Shown in pieces: positions 1 through 10,568 of a stretch of 10,568 nucleotides of DNA (within the stretch, counting starts at the first letter, position 1; each line of letters starts with the position of its first letter). The notes under the pieces were generated by a model. It worked only from the letters and a program-made list of their open reading frames with translations. It did no database searches and had not been told where the DNA came from. The stretch comes from an uncultured delta proteobacterium (GTDB taxonomy: Bacteria > Desulfobacterota > Desulfobacteria > Desulfobacterales > JAHEIW01). The stretch is from the NCBI GenBank assembly GCA_963706575.1, contig CAVPNL010000025.1:1-10568 (forward strand), written 5' to 3'. The position numbers were made by a program, and so were the translations under genes.

Positions 1-5
1 CTTTT

Positions 6-208
6 TTAGAAGTGGTTTCAAAACCTCAGATTAGGTCCAAGGGCAAGGCGTCAGGCCGACTGGGAAAGGCGTTGTTCTCAGCATACACGGTATGTGAGCA
101 TTTACCGGAGGCCTGTGCTGCACCTTAATTTAAAAAATCAGATGCGAATCCCGCTAGCGGGGCAACGCAGCCATTGGGCCTCAGATGGGGTTTTGAAACC
201 ACTTCTAA
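6..208. mobile_element. MITE-like non-autonomous palindromic element (~200 bp)
   Basis: Perfect 20-bp inverted repeat TTAGAAGTGGTTTCAAAACC (6-25) / GGTTTTGAAACCACTTCTAA (189-208). Imperfect complementarity continues inward (aggtccaagggc vs gccattgggcct). TA at 7-8 and 206-207 may be a target duplication. No transposase is encoded. Confidence 0.75.
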
Positions 209-361
209 TCCAGCACAGCAACCGCTTCAATCTCTACCATAAAATCCGGCAAAGCCAAACTTTCCACAATAAGCAGCGTATTGGCGGGTAGGGTTCCTGA
301 AAAAACTCATCTCGAACGCTGCGGTAAGTTTCGATGTAGTCATTTTGACAATGTTTTGCAT
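205..361 (-). pseudogene. RidA/YjgF (Rid family) C-terminal fragment, 5'-truncated and frameshifted
   Basis: Three minus-strand frames join into MQNIVKMTT / YIETYRSVRDEFFQEPY / (P)ANTLLIVESLALPDFMVEIEAVAVLD*, matching the Rid-family C-terminal half (..VK.T..., P..T...V..L....VEIEA.A). Stop TAG is at 207-205. There is no room for the N-terminus because trpD ends at 363. Confidence 0.75.
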
Positions 362-362
362 T

Positions 363-1442
363 TTAAATCGCCCGGCGCACAAAAAAGTCGAATTGCCGGG
401 AAAAATCGATCAAAGCATCCAGTTTGCTTTTTGCCCGGCCGGAATCAATAGACCCTTTTGCCCGCTCAACACCTTCCTTAAAACTGTCATCCAGCCCAGC
501 CGCTACAAATGCCGCCGCTGCATTCAACAGCACGACGTCTCTTTTCGGCCCTTTTTCACCGTCTAAAACGTTTCGGATTATTTCGGCATTGGCCTTAGCA
601 TTCCCGCCCTTGATTGCTTCAGGCGCTGCCCGCTTGAAACCATGCGCTTCGGGGATCATTTCAAAAGTATTTATTGCGCCGTCTTTCAGTTGAGAAACCT
701 GGGTGATGCCACAAATACTGATCTCGTCAAAGGTTTCTTCTCCGCATACCACAAATGCCTGCCGCATACCGAGTTTTTGAAGAACCTGAGCCATCTTCTC
801 GGTATGATGGGCATCATAGACACCCAACACCTGGGCAGTTGCTCCGGCAGGGTTTACCAAAGGCCCCAATAGGTTAAAGATAGACCGCAGCCCAACCTGC
901 TGCCGGGGTTCCGCCACCGCTTTCATGGCGCCATGAAAAAGCGGTGCATATAAAAACCCGATCCCGACATCCTGGATGCACTTCTCAACATTGGCAAAAT
1001 TGATATCCAGATTTACGCCCAGACTGATAAGCACATCAGCGCTGCCACACTGCCTGGAAGTTGCCCAGTTGCCGTATTTGGCCACCTTAAGTCCCGCACC
1101 GGCCACCACCAGCGCTGTTGCCGTAGAAATATTAAAGGTGTGGGTGCCGTTTGCTCCGTTACCGTGGGTATCGAGGATCGTTTCCTCTTCGACATTGATT
1201 TCATCTCGATCAATATTAATCAAAGGCTCATCGAGTCTAATTTTCTTTGTCTTGGCCTGCATGGCTTTAGCCGCCCCGGTAATCTCTTCGGCAGTCTCGC
1301 CTTTCATTCTCAGGGCAGTAATAAATGCGCCGATCTGAGCCGATGCCACCATACCGCTCAAAATCATCTCCATGACGTCGGTCATCTCTTTTTCGCTCAG
1401 GTGGTTTCCATTGGCTACCTGTGTGATTGCTTGAGTGATCAT
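363..1442 (-). CDS. trpD: Anthranilate phosphoribosyltransferase (TrpD family), with atypical PRPP-binding motifs
   Basis: 359 aa. Shows QIGAFITALRMKGETAEEI, TFNIST, GSADVL, FLYAPLFH, RSIFNLLGPLVNPA, DEIS and VLLNAAAA. Strong SD AAGGAGGT lies 8 nt upstream, and a Trp-rich leader precedes the gene. Confidence 0.93.
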   Translation of the reverse strand: MITQAITQVANGNHLSEKEMTDVMEMILSGMVASAQIGAFITALRMKGETAEEITGAAKAMQAKTKKIRLDEPLINIDRDEINVEEETILDTHGNGANGTHTFNISTATALVVAGAGLKVAKYGNWATSRQCGSADVLISLGVNLDINFANVEKCIQDVGIGFLYAPLFHGAMKAVAEPRQQVGLRSIFNLLGPLVNPAGATAQVLGVYDAHHTEKMAQVLQKLGMRQAFVVCGEETFDEISICGITQVSQLKDGAINTFEMIPEAHGFKRAAPEAIKGGNAKANAEIIRNVLDGEKGPKRDVVLLNAAAAFVAAGLDDSFKEGVERAKGSIDSGRAKSKLDALIDFSRQFDFFVRRAI

Positions 1443-1592: not shown

Positions 1593-1635
1593 AAAAATTA
1601 AAAAGGCCATGGGATCCAAGCCCCACGGCCTTTAA
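1593..1635 (-). terminator. Second (distal) terminator-like hairpin of the trp leader
   Basis: Minus RNA AAAGGCCGUGGG-GCUUGGAU-CCCAUGGCCUUU followed by UUAAUUUUU. The 12-bp stem has one position (1626/1609) that is a G-U pair only on the minus strand. Confidence 0.7.
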
Positions 1636-1647
1636 TTGCGCTAAGAT

Positions 1648-1685
1648 AAAAAACCGTGGGCCTTCGGGAGGAGGCCCACGGTTTT
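1648..1685 (-). terminator. Attenuator terminator (3:4) of the trp leader
   Basis: Perfect 14-bp stem 1650-1663 / 1672-1685 (AAAACCGUGGGCCU...AGGCCCACGGUUUU) ending in U6 on the minus strand. Starts 13 nt after the leader stop codon. Confidence 0.88.
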
Positions 1686-1745
1686 GCTAAACGTTATGTC
1701 AGTTTACGATGGGTGGGCACAGCTCCCTGTTAGAGGTGCGCCACC
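1666..1745 (-). promoter_or_regulatory. Antiterminator (2:3) and protector (1:2) segments of the trp attenuator
   Basis: 2:3: minus RNA GGGAG-cugu-GCCCAC (1727-1713) pairs with GUGGGC-cuc-CUCCC (1679-1666) in the terminator 5' arm and loop. 1:2: GGUGG-c-GCAC (1745-1736, overlapping the Trp codons) pairs with GUGC-CCACC (1720-1712). Confidence 0.8.
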
Positions 1746-1794
1746 ACCAGTTCGTGCATAATCGTTCAAAATCGGTTGTTTGCTTGAGCTTCAT
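1699..1794 (-). CDS. trpL: Trp attenuator leader peptide, 31 aa MKLKQTTDFERLCTNWWWRTSNRELCPPIVN
   Basis: ATG 1794-1792, three tandem TGG at 1749-1741, TGA 1701-1699. Lies upstream of trpD and directly before a terminator. WWRTS is identical to the end of E. coli TrpL. Confidence 0.88.
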   Translation of the reverse strand: MKLKQTTDFERLCTNWWWRTSNRELCPPIVN

Positions 1795-1801
1795 TATGAT
1801 C

Positions 1802-1830
1802 TGAATAGAGGGGACCCGTAAAAATGTCAA
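1802..1830 (-). promoter_or_regulatory. Putative sigma70 promoter for trpL-trpD
   Basis: Perfect -35 TTGACA (1830-1825), 17-nt spacer, -10-like TATTCA (1807-1802), then 7 nt to the leader ATG. Confidence 0.6.
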
Positions 1831-1849: not shown

Positions 1850-1879
1850 TTGACAAGCGTCAAGGAATCCCTTTAGAAA
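1850..1879 (+). promoter_or_regulatory. Putative sigma70 promoter for the aro leader and operon
   Basis: Perfect -35 TTGACA (1850-1855), 18-nt spacer, -10-like TAGAAA (1874-1879). A-rich UP-like tract at 1832-1845. Confidence 0.6.
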
Positions 1880-1906
1880 GCGTAAAAACCACAATGAGGA
1901 ATAATG

Positions 1907-1990
1907 ATGGCAACAACCGAACATAACATCGATCAATCCCGGCAGTACTTTTATTTTTATTTCTACCGGAGGGGTCTGCCCATGGGTTGA
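1907..1990 (+). CDS. Tyr/Phe attenuator leader peptide, (M)MATTEHNIDQSRQYFYFYFYRRGLPMG
   Basis: SD GAGGA at 1896-1900, ATGATG at 1904-1909 (1907 has the better spacing), TAC TTT TAT TTT TAT TTC TAC at 1946-1966, TGA 1988-1990. Followed by a terminator and the DAHP synthase gene. Confidence 0.88.
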   Translation: MATTEHNIDQSRQYFYFYFYRRGLPMG

Positions 1991-2026
1991 TGGATCATCT
2001 AATTTGATTTTAAGCCGCGGGCAGAC
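1933..2026 (+). promoter_or_regulatory. Antiterminator (2:3) and protector (1:2) segments of the Tyr/Phe attenuator
   Basis: 2:3: GUCUGCCCauGG (1974-1985) pairs with CCgcGGGCAGAC (2015-2026), with 8 perfect contiguous pairs that invade the terminator 5' arm. 1:2: UCAAUCCC-GGCAG (1933-1945) pairs imperfectly with CUGCC-cau-GGGUUGA (1976-1990). Confidence 0.78.
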
Positions 2027-2051
2027 GAAAGCTCGCGGCTTTTTTGTTTTT
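2012..2051 (+). terminator. Attenuator terminator (3:4) of the Tyr/Phe leader
   Basis: AAGCCGCGGGC-AGACGAAA-GCUCGCGGCUU, an 11-bp stem with one G-U, ending in UUUUUUGUUUUU (2040-2051). Confidence 0.88.
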
Positions 2052-2083
2052 AAAGGCCGTGAAAAAGATTCACGGCCTTTTTT
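2052..2083 (+). terminator. Second (distal) terminator-like hairpin of the Tyr/Phe leader
   Basis: Perfect 12-bp stem AAAGGCCGUGAA-AAAGA-UUCACGGCCUUU ending in U6 (2078-2083). Confidence 0.72.
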
Positions 2084-2111: not shown

Positions 2112-3185
2112 ATGAAATCAACTGACGATCTGAGAATTAAAGGATATCAGCCACTGACGGCGCCACAGATCTTAAAACAGGAAATTCCGATCAGTGCCGG
2201 AGCAAATGAAACGGTTGTTTCGGGAAGAGCGCAAATCGAAGCCATCCTGCGCAAGGAAGACCGCCGCCTGCTGGTGATTGTGGGGCCGTGTTCCATCCAT
2301 GATGAAGCGGCGGCCATCGAATATGCAGCCCGGCTGAATACCCTACGCAAACAGGTGGCCGACACCCTTTTCGTCGTCATGCGCGTTTATTTTGAAAAAC
2401 CGCGTACCACTGTGGGATGGAAAGGGCTGATCAATGATCCTTATCTGGATGGCACCTGCGACATGACGGCCGGATTGCGCAATGCGCGCGGCCTGTTACG
2501 GCAGATAAATGAAATGGGGCTGCCCGCGGCCACCGAGATGCTGGACACGATCACCGCTCAGTATGTTGCCGATCTGGTCAGCTGGTCGGCTATCGGGGCC
2601 CGCACCTCCGAATCCCAGACCCATCGCGAATTGGCCAGCGGTTTATCCATGCCGGTGGGCTTTAAAAACAGTACGGACGGTAATCTCTCGTCCGCCATCA
2701 ATGCATTGATGGCAGCCCGCGCCCCGCAGAGTTTTCTGGGAATAGACCAGGACGGCAAAACCTGTGTCGTCAAAACCAACGGCAACCCCTGGGTACATAT
2801 CGTACTGCGGGGTGGCAAAAGACCGAATTATGACCCCATCAGCCTGGAGGAAGCGCGCCTGAAGCTGATTGAAAAGGATTTGCCGGAGACCTTGATGGTG
2901 GATTGCTCACATGCCAATTCGATGAAAAAATACCAGGGACAGGCCGTGGTCTGGAAAAGCGTCATTGGTCAGTATCTGGCCGAAAACGAAGCCTTGATCG
3001 GCCTGATGCTCGAAAGCAACCTGCAGGAGGGCAATCAGAAATTTTCCGGTGATACTGCGGCTCTCAAATACGGTGTCTCCATCACAGATGAATGCATTTC
3101 ATGGGAGACCACCGAACAATTGCTGCTGTGGGCCCATGAAAAAATTCGACAGACGGATCCTAAAAAATTTCAGCTGGCATCCTGA
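2112..3185 (+). CDS. aroF: DAHP synthase, class I alpha (AroF/G/H family), 357 aa
   Basis: Shows GPCSIHD, RVYFEKPRTTVGWKGLINDP, IGARTSESQTHRE, GFKN, DCSHANS and YGVSITDECI. Start reassigned to ATG 2112 behind SD AAGGGG (2100-2105). The core looks closest to AroF, but feedback specificity cannot be read from the sequence. Confidence 0.93.
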   Translation: MKSTDDLRIKGYQPLTAPQILKQEIPISAGANETVVSGRAQIEAILRKEDRRLLVIVGPCSIHDEAAAIEYAARLNTLRKQVADTLFVVMRVYFEKPRTTVGWKGLINDPYLDGTCDMTAGLRNARGLLRQINEMGLPAATEMLDTITAQYVADLVSWSAIGARTSESQTHRELASGLSMPVGFKNSTDGNLSSAINALMAARAPQSFLGIDQDGKTCVVKTNGNPWVHIVLRGGKRPNYDPISLEEARLKLIEKDLPETLMVDCSHANSMKKYQGQAVVWKSVIGQYLAENEALIGLMLESNLQEGNQKFSGDTAALKYGVSITDECISWETTEQLLLWAHEKIRQTDPKKFQLAS

Positions 3186-3192
3186 TAAATTG

Positions 3193-3370
3193 AAGATTGC
3201 TGAATTCGCAAAAAGTCGAATTCATCAGGTGTTTGGTGTTTCGTGTTTTGTGTTTAGTAGGACGCATATGATGTTACATCAATTTGTTAGATTTCGAAAC
3301 ACTAAACACCAAATACTAAACACTCTCGTAAAAGATTGTTTTTCTGACTTTTTACGAGACCATCAAGATT
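3193..3370. mobile_element. MITE-like insertion (3199-3364) with 6-bp target-site duplication AAGATT
   Basis: Ends GCTGAATTCGCAAAAAGTC (3199-3217) and GACTTTTTACGAGACCATC (3346-3364) are inverted repeats (14/19 match). Flanked by direct AAGATT at 3193-3198 and 3365-3370. Confidence 0.72.
3229..3323. repeat. Inverted heptamer arrays (GTGTTTN)x4 ... (NAAACAC)x4
   Basis: gtgtttg gtgtttc gtgtttt gtgttta (3229-3256) and gaaacac taaacac caaatac taaacac (3296-3323), with a central palindrome tgatgt-t-acatca (3269-3281). Confidence 0.85.
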
Positions 3371-3378
3371 GAATATTT

Positions 3379-4402
3379 ATGGAAACCCTTACCATCAAGG
3401 CGGACTCAGGCCCTTCCCACATATTAATCGGTGAGCGCCTGGAGAACCTGCAGCGCTATATTCCAGTGGTAAAGCCGATCATCATCACAGATGTTAATGT
3501 TGGCCAATTGTACCCCCTGGATTCAATGGCCAGCGATGTGATCACCATCGGTACCGGAGAAGAAATAAAGACCCTGGATACCGTACAGCGATATTTACGG
3601 TCACCTTATATCATCCGGGGCCGATCGCTCCGCATTTATCGTCGGTATTGGCGGCGGTATCGTCTGCGATATTACCGGATTTGTGGCTTCGACCTTTCTG
3701 CGGGGGGTGCGCTTTGGTTTTGTGGCCACCACCCTGCTGGCCCAGGTGGATGCCAGCGTCGGTGGAAAGAACGGTGTTAATTTTAAAGGATACAAAAATA
3801 TGGTCGGGCTGTTTCATCAGCCTGAATTTGTCATCTGTGATCCTGAATTATTAAAAACGCTGCCGCAGAAGGAAATCTCCTGCGGCCTGGCCGAAATTGT
3901 CAAACATGCGGCCATCGCGGATGCCGAACTATTCGGTTATCTTGAGAAGCATGCTGAAGCCATATTGGCGCTGGACCGCCAGGCGATTGCAAAGCTGGTG
4001 CGGGTGTCGGTGCGCATCAAATCATCGATTGTCAGCCGCGACGAAACCGAAAAAGGCGAGCGCCGCCTGCTGAACTTTGGCCACACCTTCGGGCATGCGA
4101 TTGAAAAAGTGACCGGTGCGACACACGGTGAGGCGGTCAGCACGGGTATGGTGATTGCGTCAGCCCTGTCTGTTAAAAAGGGCCTTCTGTCAGCGGAAGA
4201 TGACCAACGGCTGCGGGCCGTACTGAAGAATTTAAGACTTCCAACCCGTTTGGAGGCCCAACCTCAAAAAATCATGGATGCCATCACAAAAGATAAAAAA
4301 AGGGCGGGCAACCGCATCCATTTTATTCTGCTAAATGGAATCGGCAATGCCCGGGTGGATCAACTTACCTTGGAGGAACTCAAGGGTGTTTTAAATGAAT
4401 AA
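3379..4402 (+). CDS. aroB: 3-dehydroquinate synthase, interrupted by a +1 frameshift near 3586-3589
   Basis: Frame 1 reads ..GTGEEIKTLDTVQ; after skipping one base it continues DIYGHLISSGADRSAFIVGIGGGIVCDITGFVASTFLRG..TTLLAQVDASVGGKNGVN..LNFGHTFGHAIE. The restored product is 340 aa. Confidence 0.9.
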
Positions 4403-4697
4403 ATCGAATACATACAAAACCGGTGGCGACCCGAAGGCGGATATCGGCGTGCTACGTCAGGCCATCGATGAGATCGACGAAAAAATTTTGGACTTAATCA
4501 ATCAGAGGCTTTCACTGGCAAAACAAATCGGCGATTTTAAGAAACAGGGCGACATTCAGATTACAGACAGCGGGCGCGAAAAAGAAATTTTAAGCCGTTT
4601 GCTGGAGAAAAACAATGGCCCCATGGGCACCGACGGGCTGCGCAATATTTTTGAAGCCATCATCGCTGAGGGTCGCAATGTACAACGCACGGGTTAA
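4395..4697 (+). CDS. Monofunctional chorismate mutase (AroQ / CM_2 family)
   Basis: 100 aa with LRQAIDEIDEKILDLINQRLSLAKQIGDFK..D..REKEIL..IFEAII...R.VQ. Overlaps the aroB stop by 8 nt. Confidence 0.88.
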   Translation: MNKSNTYKTGGDPKADIGVLRQAIDEIDEKILDLINQRLSLAKQIGDFKKQGDIQITDSGREKEILSRLLEKNNGPMGTDGLRNIFEAIIAEGRNVQRTG

Positions 4698-4720
4698 AGC
4701 GCAAAGGGTATAAAGCAAAA

Positions 4721-5543
4721 ATGATTGATGCGGATACATCCCTTTTTGGCCTGATCGGCAATCCGGTGGCACATAGCTTAAGCCCGGTGATGCACAATCA
4801 GGCGTTTGCAGCGACCGGTTACAACGGGGTTTATTTAGCGTTCAGGGTCACTGATCCGGCTACGGCGGTAAAAGGCATCGCGGCTCTGAATTTTAAAGGT
4901 GTCAGTGTCACCCTGCCCCACAAAGTTGCGGTTATGGAATACCTCGATGAGATCGACGAGACAGCAGCGCGGATCGGAGCGGTCAACACCATTATCAACA
5001 AGCAGAGCAAACTGATCGGATACAACACCGACTGTCCGGGCGCCCTGCAAGCTTTGAGGACCCGGACATCGATAAAGGATAAATCGGTGGCACTCATCGG
5101 TGCCGGCGGGGCGGCCCGGGCCATCGGATTCGGCTTGGTGGCTGCCGGCGCGGCGGGTGACCATTCTGAACCGCACGCGGGTATCCGGAGAACGTCTGGC
5201 GGCGGATCTGCAGGCTGAATTTTTACCTTTAGACGAATGGGCACCAGACCACTATGAGATTCTGATTAACACCACACCGGTGGGCATGCATCCTGACATC
5301 GATGCAACTCCGATTGCGCAGGAGAACATATCAGAAGATCTGGTGGTCATGGACATCGTTTACAATCCGCTTGATACCCGATTTTTAAAGGCAGCGGCCG
5401 CCAGAGGATGTCGCACCATCAATGGCGTTGACATGTTTGTATTTCAGGGAGCGCAGCAATTCGAACTCTGGACCGGCAAAAAGGCCCCGGTGGATGTCAT
5501 GCGTAAGGCGGTATTAGAGGCGCTGAAGAATAAAGAAACATGA
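4721..5543 (+). CDS. aroE: Shikimate dehydrogenase, interrupted by a +1 frameshift at ~5152-5153
   Basis: GNPVAHSLSPVMHN, SVTLPHK, GAVNT, GYNTD and GAGGAARA are in the first frame; VTILNRT, INTTPVGM, DIVYNP and GVDMFVFQGAQQFELWTG are in the second. Removing one G in GCG-G-CGG restores 273 aa. Confidence 0.9.
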
Positions 5544-5611
5544 AGCGATTTCAAATCTTCATTGAAGCCAGAGCGCAAGAAAACGGAATTTCATCTATTT
5601 TTACTTAATTT

Positions 5612-5681
5612 CTCACGCAAAGTCGCTAAGTCGCAAAGAATAATAATTTAACTATAAAAACACTTGGCGCCTTTGCGTGAG
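5612..5681. repeat. Palindromic element built from octamer repeats (CGCWAAGW)
   Basis: ctca-cgcaaagt-cgctaagt-cgcaaaga (5612-5639) and inverted cttggcg-c-ctttgcgtgag (5663-5681). The outer 11-bp inverted repeat CTCACGCAAAG/CTTTGCGTGAG is perfect. Confidence 0.7.
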
Positions 5682-5692
5682 GCCTAAAGCCA

Positions 5693-6958
5693 ATGAAAGA
5701 AATAAAGCCTCATAAAATTAACAACTGCCAGGTGACGGTGCCGGGCTCGAAGAGCTATACGCATCGCATGTTGATTGCTGCTGCCTTGGCCAAAGGCGTG
5801 TCTACCCTTAAAAACGCCCTTGTCAGTGAAGATACGCAATTTACCATGGAAGCCCTCAGGCAGATGGGCATTCAAATTGAAGTTAACAGCGCTGGGGTGT
5901 GCGTTGATGGAAAGGGAGGTCGTCTGGAACCGTGCGACGCACCGATCTATCTCGGGAATTCCGGAACCTCCATGCGCCTGCTGACCGGGGTGGCGGCACT
6001 GGGCACAGGAACCTATACCCTGACGGGCAATGCCCGTATGCAAATGCGGCCGATAAAGGACCTGCTGGATGCATTGCAACAAATGGGCATTAAAGCCCGA
6101 TCCGTCAAAAACACCGATTGTCCGCCGGTCGAGGTAACTGGGGCGGCGATCAAGGCCGAACAGGTGGACATTAACTGCCAAAACAGCAGCCAGTATCTTT
6201 CAGCCTTGCTTTTGATGGCGCCGCGCACTCTGCGGGGACTTGAAATTCGGGTAACCGGCGGCCCGCCGGTATCCAAACCCTATGTCGACCTGACGGTGGA
6301 GCTGATGGAAGCCTTCGGGATACAGCTGGTTCGAGAGGGCTATAAAAAATTTAACGTTGCGGGAAAACAGCTTTATCGTGCCGGCAATTATGTCGTGGAG
6401 ACGGATTGCTCGCAGGCTGCCTATTTCTGGAGCGCGGCTGCGATTAGCGGTGCCGAAATCAATGTGGCAGGGCTACAGTCTGACTCCGTCCAAGGGGATG
6501 TACGCTTTGTCGACCTGCTGCAACAAATGGGATGCCGCGTTTCCAAAACATCAGACGGCATTGGTGTTGCCGGGGGCCCGCTGCATGCAATTGAAGCCGA
6601 TATGGCGGATATGCCCGACCAGGTGCCCACACTGGCCGTGGTCGCCGCATTTGCTGAAGGCACAACCGCGATCAAAAATGTGGCCCATCTTAAATCAAAG
6701 GAAAGCGACCGCTTGAGCGCCACGGTAGCCGAGCTCAACAAAATGGGCATCGACGCCACCTGCACCGCAAATGCCCTGATAGTAAAGGGCGGAAAGCCAA
6801 AAGGCGCCATCATTGACACCTATAATGATCACCGCATCGCCATGAGCTTTGCCATCGCGGGATTGAAGGTGCCGGGCGTATGCATCCGGAACGAAGCCTG
6901 TGTTGAAAAATCCTTTCCGGCCTTCTGGCAGGTTTTTGAGGGACTATATTCGTCATGA
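5693..6958 (+). CDS. aroA: 3-phosphoshikimate 1-carboxyvinyltransferase (EPSP synthase)
   Basis: 421 aa with PGSKSYTHR, LGNSGTSMR, SSQYLSALL, KESDRL, DHRIAM and KSFP. Confidence 0.96.
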   Translation: MKEIKPHKINNCQVTVPGSKSYTHRMLIAAALAKGVSTLKNALVSEDTQFTMEALRQMGIQIEVNSAGVCVDGKGGRLEPCDAPIYLGNSGTSMRLLTGVAALGTGTYTLTGNARMQMRPIKDLLDALQQMGIKARSVKNTDCPPVEVTGAAIKAEQVDINCQNSSQYLSALLLMAPRTLRGLEIRVTGGPPVSKPYVDLTVELMEAFGIQLVREGYKKFNVAGKQLYRAGNYVVETDCSQAAYFWSAAAISGAEINVAGLQSDSVQGDVRFVDLLQQMGCRVSKTSDGIGVAGGPLHAIEADMADMPDQVPTLAVVAAFAEGTTAIKNVAHLKSKESDRLSATVAELNKMGIDATCTANALIVKGGKPKGAIIDTYNDHRIAMSFAIAGLKVPGVCIRNEACVEKSFPAFWQVFEGLYSS

Positions 6959-7494
6959 ATCTTTTTTTGATTGGCTACCGCTGCAGCGGTAAAACAACCA
7001 CCGGCAAATCAATTGCCAGGGCAATTGACTGGGCTTTTGTAGATTCCGATTTGATTGTCATCAAAGAAAACGGAAAAAGTATTAAAGATATCATCGACAC
7101 CGAAGGCTGGGATGCTTTTCGTCGCATGGAGCGTTCGGCTTTGAAGCAAATCTGCGCAAATGATCGCCAGGTAGTGGCCACCGGCGGCGGGGTGGTGCTT
7201 GACCAATCGAATATCAAGGCAATGAAAACCAGCGGTATGGTTATCTGGTTAAATGCAGGGGCTGAAACCATTCAGAAAAGAATGCTGCAGGATAAAAACA
7301 CCGACGATTTTCGACCGGCATTAACCGACAAGGGGCGGATGGAAGAAATCGAAGACATGCTGCTAAAAAGGAATCCTTATTATGGAAGCGCCAGTGATTT
7401 TTCCATCCATACCGATAATGCGCCGATTGATGAGATTACTCAAAAAATCATTCAAAAGCTATCGGTTGGGCCGCCTTGTTCTGTTACCCGTTAG
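6955..7494 (+). CDS. aroK: Shikimate kinase
   Basis: 179 aa with P-loop GYRCSGKTT, DSD, GWDAFRRME, ATGGG and the RP lid motif. ATGA overlap with aroA. Confidence 0.93.
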   Translation: MNLFLIGYRCSGKTTTGKSIARAIDWAFVDSDLIVIKENGKSIKDIIDTEGWDAFRRMERSALKQICANDRQVVATGGGVVLDQSNIKAMKTSGMVIWLNAGAETIQKRMLQDKNTDDFRPALTDKGRMEEIEDMLLKRNPYYGSASDFSIHTDNAPIDEITQKIIQKLSVGPPCSVTR

Positions 7495-7516
7495 CCCGCC
7501 GTTGGCGCACTTAATC

Positions 7517-7600
7517 GCAAAGGGCTAAGCGCATAGCGCAAAGAGCTAAAAATCGAATTTCCTTGTTTTTAATCTAAACGCTATGCTCTATGCGCTATGC
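7517..7600. repeat. Inverted heptamer arrays (GCWWAGN)x5 ... (NCTATGC)x3
   Basis: gcaaagg gctaagc gcatagc gcaaaga gctaaaa (7517-7551) and gctatgc tctatgc gctatgc (7580-7600). Confidence 0.78.
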
Positions 7601-7667
7601 TTTAGTTTCCGCGGTAATCCGCCTGCGGAGGACTTAATGCAAACTATAAATTAGGAGATTACAAACC

Positions 7668-8762
7668 ATGTCCAGCACATTTGGCACTCTATTTCGTGTC
7701 ACCACCTTTGGTGAGTCCCATGGTCAGGGGGTCGGTGCCGTGATTGACGGCTGTCCTCCCAAAATGTCCCTGGACGAAACCGATATCCAGCCCCAGTTGG
7801 ATCGACGCCGGCCGGCCCAGAGCGAATTGACGACCCCGCGAGAAGAGGCCGACCGAATTGCTATCCTTTCGGGGGTCGATAACGGTATAACGCTGGGAAC
7901 GCCGATCGCGTTAATGGTCAAAAATACGGATCAGCGACCGGCGGATTATCGCCGCATGCGTTCGGTGCCGCGACCCTCACATGCGGATTACACCTACCGC
8001 ATGAAGTACGGCATTCAGGCTTTAAGCGGCGGCGGCCGCGCCAGTGCCAGAGAAACCGTTGGCCGCGTTGCCGCCGGCGCTGTTGCTGAAAAATTTTTAT
8101 CCGAGCGATACGGTATTGAAATCGTTGCCTGGGTCAGCGCCGTCGCTGCGATTGAGGCACCGTCACCCGACATGGGGAGCCTAATCCGTAAAGACGTGGA
8201 TCGATCGCCGGTCCGCTGTCCGGACTCACCTTCTGCCGAAAAAATGCAGGAGGCTATCATTGCAGCGCAAAAGGCAGGGGACTCTGTGGGAGGTATCATT
8301 TCCTGTGTGTGCCGTAATATCCCTGCCGGGCTGGGCGAACCTGTATTTGACAAAATAGAAGCATTGCTGGCCCAGGCCATGCTGTCGATCCCGGCGACCA
8401 AAGGCATTGAAATCGGCTCGGGCTTTGCGGGTTCACGCATGCGCGGATCCGAGCATAATGATGTATTTATTAAAAAAAGAGCTCAATTAGGCACGAAGAC
8501 CAATTACAGCGGCGGTATTCAAGGCGGCATAACCAATGGCGAACCGATTACGTTTCGGGTCGCTTTCAAACCGCCGGCAACCATCAGCCTGTCCCAAAAA
8601 ACAGTTGATTTCGAGGGCAACGATACGGTTCTCGAGGCCAAGGGCCGTCACGACCCCTGTGTGGTGCCGCGGGCCGTACCTATTGTCGAAAGCATGGCCG
8701 CATTGGTTTTGGTCGACCTCGCGCTGCGGCAGAAGATGAGAGAAAATGAAACTATCCAGTAA
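7668..8762 (+). CDS. aroC: Chorismate synthase
   Basis: 364 aa with [41 protein letters not shown] and [18 protein letters not shown] at 7653-7657. Confidence 0.97.
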
Positions 8763-9876
8763 AATTCAGGCCGTTGCAGGATCACAAACGGTTGCCTTTA
8801 CGACCTTGATTCAACAGCACCGGCAGGAAGGCCGAAAGATTATCGATTTGGCTGTGGGCGAACCGCAATTTGATACGCCGGATACTGTGATTGACGCCAC
8901 CAAAAGCGCTCTGGACGCCCAAAAGACCCGCTACAGCCCGGTAAACGGTCTTTCTGAGCTCAGAACGCAGCTGGCGGCGCAATTCTGCGGATATGATATC
9001 GACAACATTCTGATCACGAATGGATCCAAGCAGGCATTGTTTATGATCTTTCAGGTTATTTGCGATCCTGCAGATGAAGTCATTATCCCCACGCCTTACT
9101 GGGTAAGTTTTATCGAGCAAGTCAAACTTGCCGGTGGCAAGCCGGTGCCGGTGGCAACGAAAGACCACCAGCTGAACTGCGAAGCCATTAAGCGTGCCGT
9201 TACGCCGCGGACAAAAGCCATTTTGATCAACTCGCCAAACAACCCCAGCGGGGCGGTGTATCCAATGGCCGACTTGCATGAAATCGCGCGGCTGGCAGCG
9301 GATCACAACCTGTTTATTGTCGCGGACGAGGCCTATGATGCCTTTGTATACGACGGTTACACACATGCGAGCCTATTCGACATAGAGCGTGTTCGTAACC
9401 GGGTAATCGTGACACGCAGTTTTTCAAAAAGCTATAGCATGACCGGATTCAGAATCGGGTACGTTGCAGCTCCCGGGAAGATCATTGCGGCCCTGTCTAA
9501 AATTCAGAGCCATCTGAGCGGCAATGTTTGCACCTTTGCCCAATACGGCGCGCTGGCCGCCCTGTCCCTGGATGCCCATTTGCTTTCAGACCGGCAAACC
9601 GAGCTGCAGCAAAAAAGAGACATGGCCTTTCAGACCGTTTCAAGGTTGTTTGACTGCATTAAACCCCAAGGCGCATTTTATCTTTTTCCGGATGTTTCAG
9701 CAGTTTTAAAAAGCGATGAAACATCCGAGGATTTGGCCCGGCGGCTTTTAAAACAGGCCGGTGTGGCGGTTGTCGCCGGAGAGGCCTTTGGCAAGGCAAA
9801 GCATTTGCGCATATCGTTTGCTGTTTCAGAAGAAAACCTAAAAAATGGGCTTGAACGCATAGCAGAGGTATTATGA
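8746..9876 (+). CDS. PLP-dependent class I aminotransferase (subgroup Ib AAT-like), candidate prephenate/aromatic aminotransferase
   Basis: 376 aa with [48 protein letters not shown] and GAFYLF. Overlaps both aroC and tyrA. Confidence 0.88.
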
Positions 9877-10568
9877 TCGGAATCATTGGGTTCGGACGCT
9901 TTGGCAAACTAACCGCCGGATATCTGGCCGAAGATTTTGACGTTTTTGTTTTTAATCGCACCGATAAATCCGGCGCGATTAAAAAATGCGGTGCTCGTAA
10001 CGCATCGCTAAGAACTGTTTGCCGGCAAAAAATCGTGATTTTATGTGTTCCGATTTCCACCCTCAAGGAGGTTCTCGTCGAAATCGGGCCGCTTTTAGAT
10101 AAAGATTCTGTGGTTGTCGATGTCTGCTCGGTAAAGGTCTATCCAACCGAGTGGATGAAAGCGTCGCTGCCTGAAACGGTCTCGATTCTGGCGACCCACC
10201 CGATATTTGGACCCGATAGCGCTTCGGATTCTTTAAAGGATCGTAAAATCTTTTTAAGCCCGATCCGAATCAATAAAAAGAAATATCAAAAAATCAAAAC
10301 TTATCTGGCTTCAAAAGAACTCGTTCTTATCGAATCCACCCCGCAGGATCATGATGAGCAAATCGCCGTCAGCCTGGCGCTGACCCATTATATCGGAAGA
10401 ACCTTGTCTGAATTCGGCGCTGCTCCGCTGGACATAGACAGCGAGGGCTATAAACGGCTGCTGCATATCCTGGAGGTCGTGGAGCATGATACCTGGCAAT
10501 TATTTTATGACATGCACCGCTATAACCCTTACGCGCAAGAAAAACGGACCGCATTCAGGCATGCTATG
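9873..10568 (+). CDS. tyrA: TyrA-family prephenate/arogenate dehydrogenase (plant-type TyrAa-like), 3'-truncated by the window edge
   Basis: Absent from the ORF track because there is no stop in the window. ATG 9873 overlaps the aminotransferase stop (ATGA). Translation: [42 protein letters not shown]....LTHYIGR..EGYKRLL..EHDTWQLF..RYNPYA. Confidence 0.9.
   Translation, partial: MIGIIGFGRFGKLTAGYLAEDFDVFVFNRTDKSGAIKKCGARNASLRTVCRQKIVILCVPISTLKEVLVEIGPLLDKDSVVVDVCSVKVYPTEWMKASLPETVSILATHPIFGPDSASDSLKDRKIFLSPIRINKKKYQKIKTYLASKELVLIESTPQDHDEQIAVSLALTHYIGRTLSEFGAAPLDIDSEGYKRLLHILEVVEHDTWQLFYDMHRYNPYAQEKRTAFRHAM

What the first reader, a model, noticed from the sequence alone, without database searches (positions are those of the whole stretch)
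1904..2051. Unannotated dual Tyr/Phe-sensing leader peptide (YFYFYFY) controlling a whole shikimate-tyrosine operon
Seen: a 27-28 aa ORF with its own SD and seven strictly alternating Tyr/Phe codons, an antiterminator (1974-1985 with 2015-2026) and a terminator directly upstream of the DAHP synthase gene. Established: E. coli attenuates pheA with Phe codons only and controls aroF-tyrA through the TyrR protein; multivalent leaders are known for thr (Thr/Ile) and ilv. Inference: ribosome stalling on either Tyr or Phe starvation derepresses at least nine genes, aroF through tyrA. Tyr-codon attenuation of a complete common pathway is unusual, and I know of no characterised case in deltaproteobacteria.
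Basis: partly seen in the sequence, partly recalled or inferred. Interest (0 to 1): 0.82.

Follow-up and report, generated by a model that had tools for sequence, protein, structure and literature searches.

The report
Tyr/Phe leader attenuator, twin terminators
A 28-codon mini-gene packed with tyrosine and phenylalanine codons, followed by two linked stop-transcription hairpins, lies in front of the aromatic amino-acid operon of this sulfate-reducer relative and is kept across its order; a ribosome stalling there likely switches the operon on when these amino acids run short, which is a textbook principle with a less usual wiring.

Summary
Observation confirmed: leader ORF 1904-1990 (YFYFYFY), antiterminator 1974-1985:2015-2026 and terminator 2012-2045 precede a class Ia DAHP synthase gene and eight more aro/tyr genes. 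It is not just a T-rich tract: 100 of 111 related DAHP-synthase loci carry such a leader; in frame TTY/TAY codons number 574 of 747, TTR/TAR 2; all helices covary. Strict Y/F alternation is not conserved. The principle is known, and a Phe-Tyr-Phe leader before a DAHP synthase is characterised in Corynebacterium (aroR; responds to Phe, not Tyr), so Tyr sensing here is inferred only. No expression data. The scan noted this leader and the relay before on other DNA (e1-9859361, e1-7369689). New variant of a known kind.

The parts
1850..1879 (+). candidate sigma-70 promoter of the leader (-35 TTGACA 1850-1855; weak -10 at 1873-1879)
   Evidence: sequence; a -35-like hexamer lies within 130 nt of the aromatic run in 89 of 96 leaders vs 16 of 96 shuffles, 64 of the 89 at 80-99 nt; not listed by the consensus scan
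1896..1900 (+). Shine-Dalgarno-like GAGGA of the leader ORF
   Evidence: sequence; 6 nt before ATG 1907
1904..1990 (+). leader peptide ORF, 27-28 aa
   Evidence: homologues in 100 of 111 DAHPS loci
1946..1966 (+). control codons: 4 Tyr + 3 Phe
   Evidence: codon test
1935..1945 (+). segment 1 (pairs with segment 2; protector hairpin 1:2, -15.5 kcal/mol)
   Evidence: fold; covariation helix 1, 5 of 7 pairs with two-sided change
1974..1988 (+). segment 2 (pairs with 1 or with 3)
   Evidence: begins 8 nt after the last Tyr codon
2012..2026 (+). segment 3: 5' arm and loop of terminator 1; antiterminator partner of segment 2
   Evidence: 90.7% of cells paired, 5 of 9 pairs with two-sided change
2012..2045 (+). 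terminator 1 (3:4) with U tract
   Evidence: 94.2% paired
2033..2062 (+). relay helix 4:5 (2033-2043 with 2052-2062, -15.8 kcal/mol), predicted second antiterminator
2052..2083 (+). terminator-like hairpin 2 (5:6, -18.5 kcal/mol) with U tract
2112..3185 (+). class Ia DAHP synthase, first gene
3379..10568 (+). aroB (split), chorismate mutase, aroE (split), aroA, aroK/L, aroC, aminotransferase, tyrA (runs off the contig)
   Evidence: other runs' contigs lack one base at 3587 and 5151, so the splits are likely assembly errors
1699..1794 (-). divergent Trp leader ORF, 31 aa, three Trp codons at 1749-1741; -35 TTGACA at 1830-1825, no SD seen, possibly leaderless
   Evidence: Rfam Trp_leader 25.4 bits, below gathering 41
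1602..1685 (-). two terminator hairpins of the Trp attenuator (1685-1650, 1633-1602) with the same 4:5 relay (-21.2)
363..1442 (-). trpD, anthranilate phosphoribosyltransferase
   Evidence: TIGR01245 above cut-off

Best explanation
This is a conserved leader ORF with seven Tyr/Phe codons set in alternative, covarying RNA helices, and it likely works as a ribosome-mediated transcription attenuator with two terminators in series. When charged tRNA-Tyr and tRNA-Phe are plentiful the ribosome would reach the stop at 1988-1990, cover segment 2, and terminator 1 (then terminator 2 as a back-up) would end the transcript. When either is short the ribosome would stall on 1946-1966, leaving segment 2 free to capture segment 3; the freed segment 4 would then capture the 5' arm of hairpin 2, so both terminators are disarmed and polymerase would read into the shikimate/Phe/Tyr genes. 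Shown: sequence, conservation, covariation, folding energies, gene identities. Inferred: translation, stalling, termination, the response to each amino acid, one transcript.
For: Leader plus terminator in 100 of 111 class Ia DAHPS loci examined (101 flagged, 1 spurious). In 83 unique leaders, 747 control codons: TTY 223, TAY 351, TTR 2, TAR 0; Y+F 574 vs 252+-9 in 1000 base shuffles; other frames 21% and 23%. Gaps in the control region of the 74-sequence alignment are all triplets. Covariation of 1:2 and 3:4 (72 two-sided cells vs 22.3 shuffled, 0/500) and of 2:3 (26 vs 9.2, 0/500); slid controls fall to 19-52% paired. With ribosome occlusion, segment 3 is paired in 95/97 leaders stalled at the first or middle aromatic codon, 87/97 at the last, 18/97 at the stop. 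Relay: 96 of 180 parsed leaders have hairpin 2; 94 of 96 give a 4:5 duplex of -9 or better; cognate mean -16.6 vs -15.0+-0.2 swapped vs -8.2 with generic terminators; in 70 unique pairs the four variable positions pair 232/280 vs 208+-3 (0/2000), with A-T/G-C and C-G/T-A exchanges. Only 5 tandem pairs among 282 terminator-like sites of the genome, 4 of them at these aro and trp leaders. Model hits in 138 of 150 genomes of the order, almost all before aromatic-pathway genes.
Against: No expression evidence: the four RNA runs laid hold only contigs of 85-95% relatives and may contain DNA. In C. glutamicum the Phe-Tyr-Phe leader responds to Phe but not Tyr (review passage). 84 of 180 leaders lack hairpin 2 by my criteria, so it is dispensable. 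At equilibrium hairpin 2 (-18.5) beats 4:5 (-15.8), so the relay needs co-transcriptional kinetics. Without a ribosome the 2:3 fold (-33.4) beats 1:2, so the untranslated outcome is uncertain. Five of 100 leaders stop before segment 2 or shift frame and were left out of the codon test. Genomes are kin, so shuffle counts are not probabilities. Gaps of 149-193 nt with repeats lie between three genes; internal promoters are not excluded.
Confidence: 0.86

Rival explanations
1. Same attenuator, but only Phe-tRNA is sensed in practice; Tyr codons are passengers, as reported for C. glutamicum aroR.
For: [quoted passage not shown] TAY and TTY differ by one base.
Against: Tyr outnumbers Phe across the family (554 vs 362 codons in 133 unique leaders; none lacks Tyr, 3 lack Phe); some leaders are almost pure Tyr; in the operon's own genes Tyr and Phe codons are 40 and 49 of 1697.
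Confidence: 0.15
2. Attenuation uses terminator 1 only; hairpin 2 is a duplicated terminator, pause or 5' stabilising hairpin, and its fit to segment 4 is a by-product of duplication.
For: Absent in 84 of 180 leaders; its 5' arm resembles that of terminator 1; hairpin 2 is more stable than 4:5.
Against: Cognate 4:5 pairing beats all swaps and shows two-sided changes; same wiring in 13 of 14 parsed Trp leaders; an undisarmed U-tailed hairpin would block the operon.
Confidence: 0.25
3. The peptide itself is an arrest peptide (TnaC-like; recalled) whose conserved G-L-P end senses free amino acid in the exit tunnel.
For: G-L-P-x-V-R-stop is conserved at fixed distance from the stop (74 of 88 have 3 residues after Pro).
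Against: Codons are fixed (CTG 71 of 83, CCT/CCC 82 of 83), Leu changes to Pro via CCG, and these bases covary with segments 1 and 3: RNA, not peptide, constraint.
Confidence: 0.05
4. A T-rich tract beside an ordinary terminator; the ORF is chance.
For: The tract is T-rich and the genome's intergenic DNA is AT-rich.
Against: Third positions avoid A/G (TTR 2, TAR 0 of 747), triplet-only gaps, start and stop conserved, alternative helices covary.
Confidence: 0.01

Closest known systems
Corynebacterium glutamicum aroR leader before aroF (DAHP synthase) (Mentz 2013, PMC4046766, passages read; Neshat 2014 seen only as summarised in PMC11802643)
   Same: Leader peptide with Phe and Tyr codons controlling a DAHP-synthase-led operon by attenuation.
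   Different: Three control codons (F-Y-F), responds to Phe only; here about seven, Tyr-majority, two terminators, another phylum; no sequence relation tested.
E. coli pheL-pheA attenuator (Rfam Phe_leader; PMC3082878, section 10 read)
   Same: About seven aromatic codons, 1:2/2:3/3:4 logic; a pheL was predicted there for Desulfobacterium autotrophicum.
   Different: Phe only, controls pheA only; no Rfam Phe_leader match here at E<=5.
Salmonella/E. coli his attenuator, six segments A-F (recalled, not from a call)
   Same: Three hairpins in the terminating state, two shifted helices in read-through: a relay.
   Different: In his only the last hairpin is a terminator (recalled); here hairpins 3:4 and 5:6 both carry U tracts.
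thr and ilv multivalent attenuators (recalled)
   Same: Interspersed codons for two end products.
   Different: Aromatic pathway; no homology.
Acholeplasma uORFC-13-1 before aroF (PMC8632094, passage read)
   Same: Predicted uORF and terminator before DAHP synthase.
   Different: Phe codons, Tenericutes, untested.

Membership tests
Ribosome-mediated transcription attenuators | Short leader ORF with start signal and clustered codons of the pathway's products | tested here: met
Ribosome-mediated transcription attenuators | Intrinsic terminator between leader and first gene | tested here: met
   (sequence features only)
Ribosome-mediated transcription attenuators | Antiterminator that excludes the terminator, freed by a stalled ribosome and covered at the stop | tested here: met
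   (folding model)
Ribosome-mediated transcription attenuators | Downstream genes make the amino acids encoded | tested here: met
Ribosome-mediated transcription attenuators | Leader translated; read-through rises on starvation | not testable with these tools
   RNA runs uninformative
Rfam Phe_leader (pheL family) | Match to the covariance model | tested here: not met
   no hit at E<=5 in 1400-2200
Rfam trpB motif RF04312 | Score above gathering 59; Firmicutes/Fusobacteria | tested here: not met
   20.4 bits, E 3.5; description in PMC11109978
aroR (Corynebacterium) | Sequence homology to aroR | not tested
   aroR sequence not fetched; treated as analogue
his-type six-segment attenuator | Relay of two shifted helices | tested here: met
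   (his architecture recalled)
Trivalent Phe/Tyr/Trp sensor | Trp codons selected as control codons | tested here: inconclusive
   absent in the window; Trp in 60 of 133 leaders, but 51 of 65 TGG sit where GG is paired in the fold, like 47 of 50 other NGG codons

The most novel reading that the evidence does not exclude
A Desulfobacterota-wide, portable attenuator in which Tyr-tRNA is the main signal, one ribosome stall disarms two terminators in series, and the same cassette has been re-attached to whichever unrelated enzyme opens the aromatic pathway (DAHP synthase Ia, DAHP synthase Ib, or archaeal-type ADH synthase with DHQ synthase II), with a Trp attenuator of the same wiring facing the other way.
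Probability: 0.5. Interest if true: 0.62.

Novelty: new variant of a known kind. Interest (0 to 1): 0.45.

Why it matters
It would show how a large group of sulfate reducers controls aromatic amino-acid synthesis without an obvious protein regulator, give a clean test case for Tyr-tRNA sensing (the one characterised Phe/Tyr leader ignores Tyr) and for a two-terminator relay that could tighten an RNA switch. The leader also works as an annotation marker: it points to ADH synthase/DHQ synthase II as the working entry route in most of the order and flags transporters and CoA ligases as likely aromatic-related.

Tried and rejected
Rfam search of 1400-2200: no family at gathering score. RNA runs X15, X16, X17, X19: contigs only, relatives at about 85-95%, nothing on ends or levels. 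Genome-wide pattern scan stopped at 10 of 64 parts; of 120 loci 26 passed my terminator filter, 25 true leaders and 1 chance hit inside a gene; the rest are chance. Strict alternation as a feature: rejected. Y:F ratio tracking tyrA vs pheA content: not evident (DAHPS-led 325 Y:195 F; others 229:167; leaders before pheA without nearby tyrA stay Tyr-rich). Trp as a third signal: inconclusive. Sequestration of the DAHPS ribosome site by hairpin 2: they do not overlap (2083 vs about 2099-2105). No prephenate dehydratase found in G000, but 15 of 21 same-genus genomes have it, so missing assembly is the likelier cause. Lopatovskaya 2010 not held; supplements of PMC3082878 and PMC11109978 could not be read and may list this element. 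Paper searches gave no description of this leader in Desulfobacterota; the library covers open-access papers only. No protein-database, structure or complex job was run: none bears on a leader peptide.

Full report
What is there. The window is a whole 10.6-kb contig of its genome. The ORF at 1904-1990 encodes 28 residues with YFYFYFY at 1946-1966. GAGGA at 1896-1900 suits the second ATG (1907). A -35 hexamer lies at 1850-1855. Nine same-strand genes follow from 2112: class Ia DAHP synthase, aroB, chorismate mutase, aroE, aroA, aroK/L, aroC, an aminotransferase and tyrA. aroB and aroE are split; contigs of other runs lack one base at 3587 (1 of 4 runs) and 5151 (3 of 4 runs), so these are likely assembly errors. 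Named records labelled Desulfobacterales carry leaders of nearly the same peptide (L193, L219), which places the window in or near that order.

Is the reading frame what is conserved? The DAHP synthase was found in 22 of 41 close relatives and 95 of 251 genomes of the order. I examined 111 loci: 100 have a Y/F-rich ORF and terminator upstream (one further flag, L060, was spurious). Of the 11 without, one has no upstream DNA, two genes are internal to an operon, four are stand-alone paralogues of about 50% identity, and four are unexplained. For the codon test I dropped 5 leaders with an early stop or shifted frame and 7 without the anchor; the 88 left gave 83 unique. Of 747 control codons, TTT/TTC number 223, TAT/TAC 351, TTA/TTG 2, TAA/TAG 0; Y+F is 574 against 252+-9 in base shuffles, and 21% and 23% in the other frames. 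All gaps in that region of a 74-sequence alignment (74 of the 100 given) are triplets. The order of Y and F varies freely, so the alternation is incidental.

The switch. Segment 1 (1935-1945) can pair with segment 2, segment 2 with 3, and 3 with 4. All three helices covary beyond shuffled and slid controls, with the caveat that the genomes are kin. Masking the bases under a ribosome leaves the antiterminator formed in 95 of 97 parsed leaders for a stall at the first or middle aromatic codon, 87 at the last, 18 at the stop. The conserved G-L-P end is fixed at the codon level and covaries with its RNA partners, so it is structure, not an arrest peptide.

A second U-tailed hairpin (2052-2083, -18.5) lies before the gene, and 2:3 cannot prevent it. 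But segment 4, once freed, pairs with its 5' arm (2033-2043:2052-2062, -15.8). Of 180 leaders parsed, 96 have such a hairpin and 94 of these give a duplex of -9 or better; cognate pairs average -16.6 against -15.0+-0.2 when swapped and -8.2 with generic terminators of the genome. In 70 unique pairs the four variable positions pair 232 of 280 times against 208+-3, with two-sided changes. Among 282 terminator-like sites in the genome there are 5 tandem pairs; 4 are the aro and trp leaders. Against: 84 of 180 lack it, and at equilibrium the hairpin wins over the relay helix, so the relay must be kinetic.

The neighbour. On the other strand a 31-codon ORF (1794-1699) with three Trp codons precedes two terminators and trpD; Rfam Trp_leader scores 25.4 bits, under its cut-off. 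The same relay shows in 13 of 14 Trp leaders parsed from 19 loci. So Tyr/Phe and Trp are sensed by two back-to-back leaders of one design (inferred).

The family follows the function, not the gene. A covariance model hits 138 of 150 genomes of the order and 66 of 150 of the phylum (weak hits unverified). Of 97 order-level hits not at a class Ia gene that I fetched (19 matches were not listed), 75 precede ADH synthase, 5 aroK-aroC-DAHPS Ib, 2 DAHPS Ib, 4 aroE, 2 aroA, 1 pheA, 1 aroD; 4 are Trp leaders and 3 other. ADH synthase passed TIGR01949 in 5 of 5 proteins tested and the next gene is DHQ synthase II in 2 of 2, the route known from archaea (recalled). Of 26 hits outside the order: 10 ADH synthase, 6 DAHPS Ib, 2 DAHPS Ia, 3 aroK, 2 periplasmic binding proteins, 1 CoA ligase, 2 tandem attenuators. 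Thirteen more distant class Ia loci of the phylum show no leader. In 4 of 5 close relatives with enough DNA the window's gene run continues aroQ - DAHPS Ib - prephenate dehydratase, which explains sensing both Phe and Tyr. Tyr codons outnumber Phe (554 to 362 in 133 unique leaders); Trp occurs in 60 but mostly where GG is base-paired, so a third signal is undecided.

What is known. E. coli uses TyrR for aroF-tyrA and attenuation for pheA (PMC5343134, passages). C. glutamicum has a Phe-Tyr-Phe leader before aroF (PMC4046766, passages) that answers to Phe but not Tyr (PMC11802643, review passage on Neshat 2014; the original not read). A pheL was predicted in Desulfobacterium autotrophicum (PMC3082878, section 10) and a Phe uORF before aroF in Acholeplasma (PMC8632094, passages). 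Shewanella attenuators listed do not include Tyr (PMC3223726, passages). A tandem terminator is mentioned for the rimP leader (PMC2965389, passage). Lopatovskaya 2010 predicted attenuators in delta-proteobacteria (recalled; citation seen in PMC4833913; paper not held) and may include this one. Ten searches found no description of it. The six-segment his attenuator is the architectural precedent (recalled). The scan's own notes hold 50 findings matching my aromatic-leader words, the relay in several lineages and this leader in another Desulfobacterales genome; these are unchecked notes, looked up after my own relay result.

Verdict. A real, well-conserved attenuator (0.86); both amino acids sensed about 0.75; relay functional about 0.7. 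It works like pheL, aroR and hisL and is a member of the general class, not of any Rfam family. The additions are the Tyr majority, the twin terminators and the re-use before three unrelated entry enzymes. Nothing is shown in vivo (uninformative). Interest 0.45.

Noticed in passing
window 1602-1830 (- strand): Trp leader with twin terminators controls a stand-alone trpD; -35 and spacing put the likely start of transcription at the leader ATG, so it may be leaderless. No trpE match was found in G000 at the threshold used.
   Followed up: partly
G000 C15:499472-506502: Second copy of the locus, 89-95% identical, with many frameshifts; the contig then turns into unrelated-looking DNA. Likely strain mixture and a chimeric join (bin contamination 6.4%) rather than paralogy.
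   Followed up: partly
window 1-210, 1510-1597, 3188-3366, 5578-5690, 7509-7646: Intergenic repeats with many copies in the genome sit between operon genes and between the Trp attenuator and trpD; relatives' contigs skip some of them.
   Followed up: no
L399:230-850, L401:1460-2080: Two complete Y/F attenuators in tandem, then a third short ORF of about 60 codons ending near a single Tyr and a further hairpin.
   Followed up: no
L125 (leader near 3429, + strand): Two aromatic leaders of different subtype back to back: one before DAHP synthase, one before aroK-aroB. Within the genus both subtypes precede 85-93% identical DAHP synthases, hinting at leader swaps.
   Followed up: partly
L050, L055, L061: Leader stops right after the aromatic run; the usual C-terminal motif survives in another frame, so termination would rely on 1:2 re-forming after ribosome release.
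   Followed up: partly
L405, L415, L373, L392, L379: Phe- or Tyr-rich leaders before two Peripla_BP_6 binding proteins, an AMP-binding CoA ligase, an acyl-CoA synthetase and a protein with no Pfam hit: candidate aromatic uptake or salvage genes.
   Followed up: partly
L126-L138 (one family outside the order): Phe-majority leaders (FFFWFYF type) before class Ia DAHP synthase.
   Followed up: no
L056, L062, L068, L081, L110: A second, diverged class Ia DAHP synthase gene lies inside the same operon after aroB; other relatives carry a class Ib gene near the end.
   Followed up: no
L052, L063, L064: trpE-trpG lies head to head with the aro operon here too; no WW leader was parsed there.
   Followed up: partly
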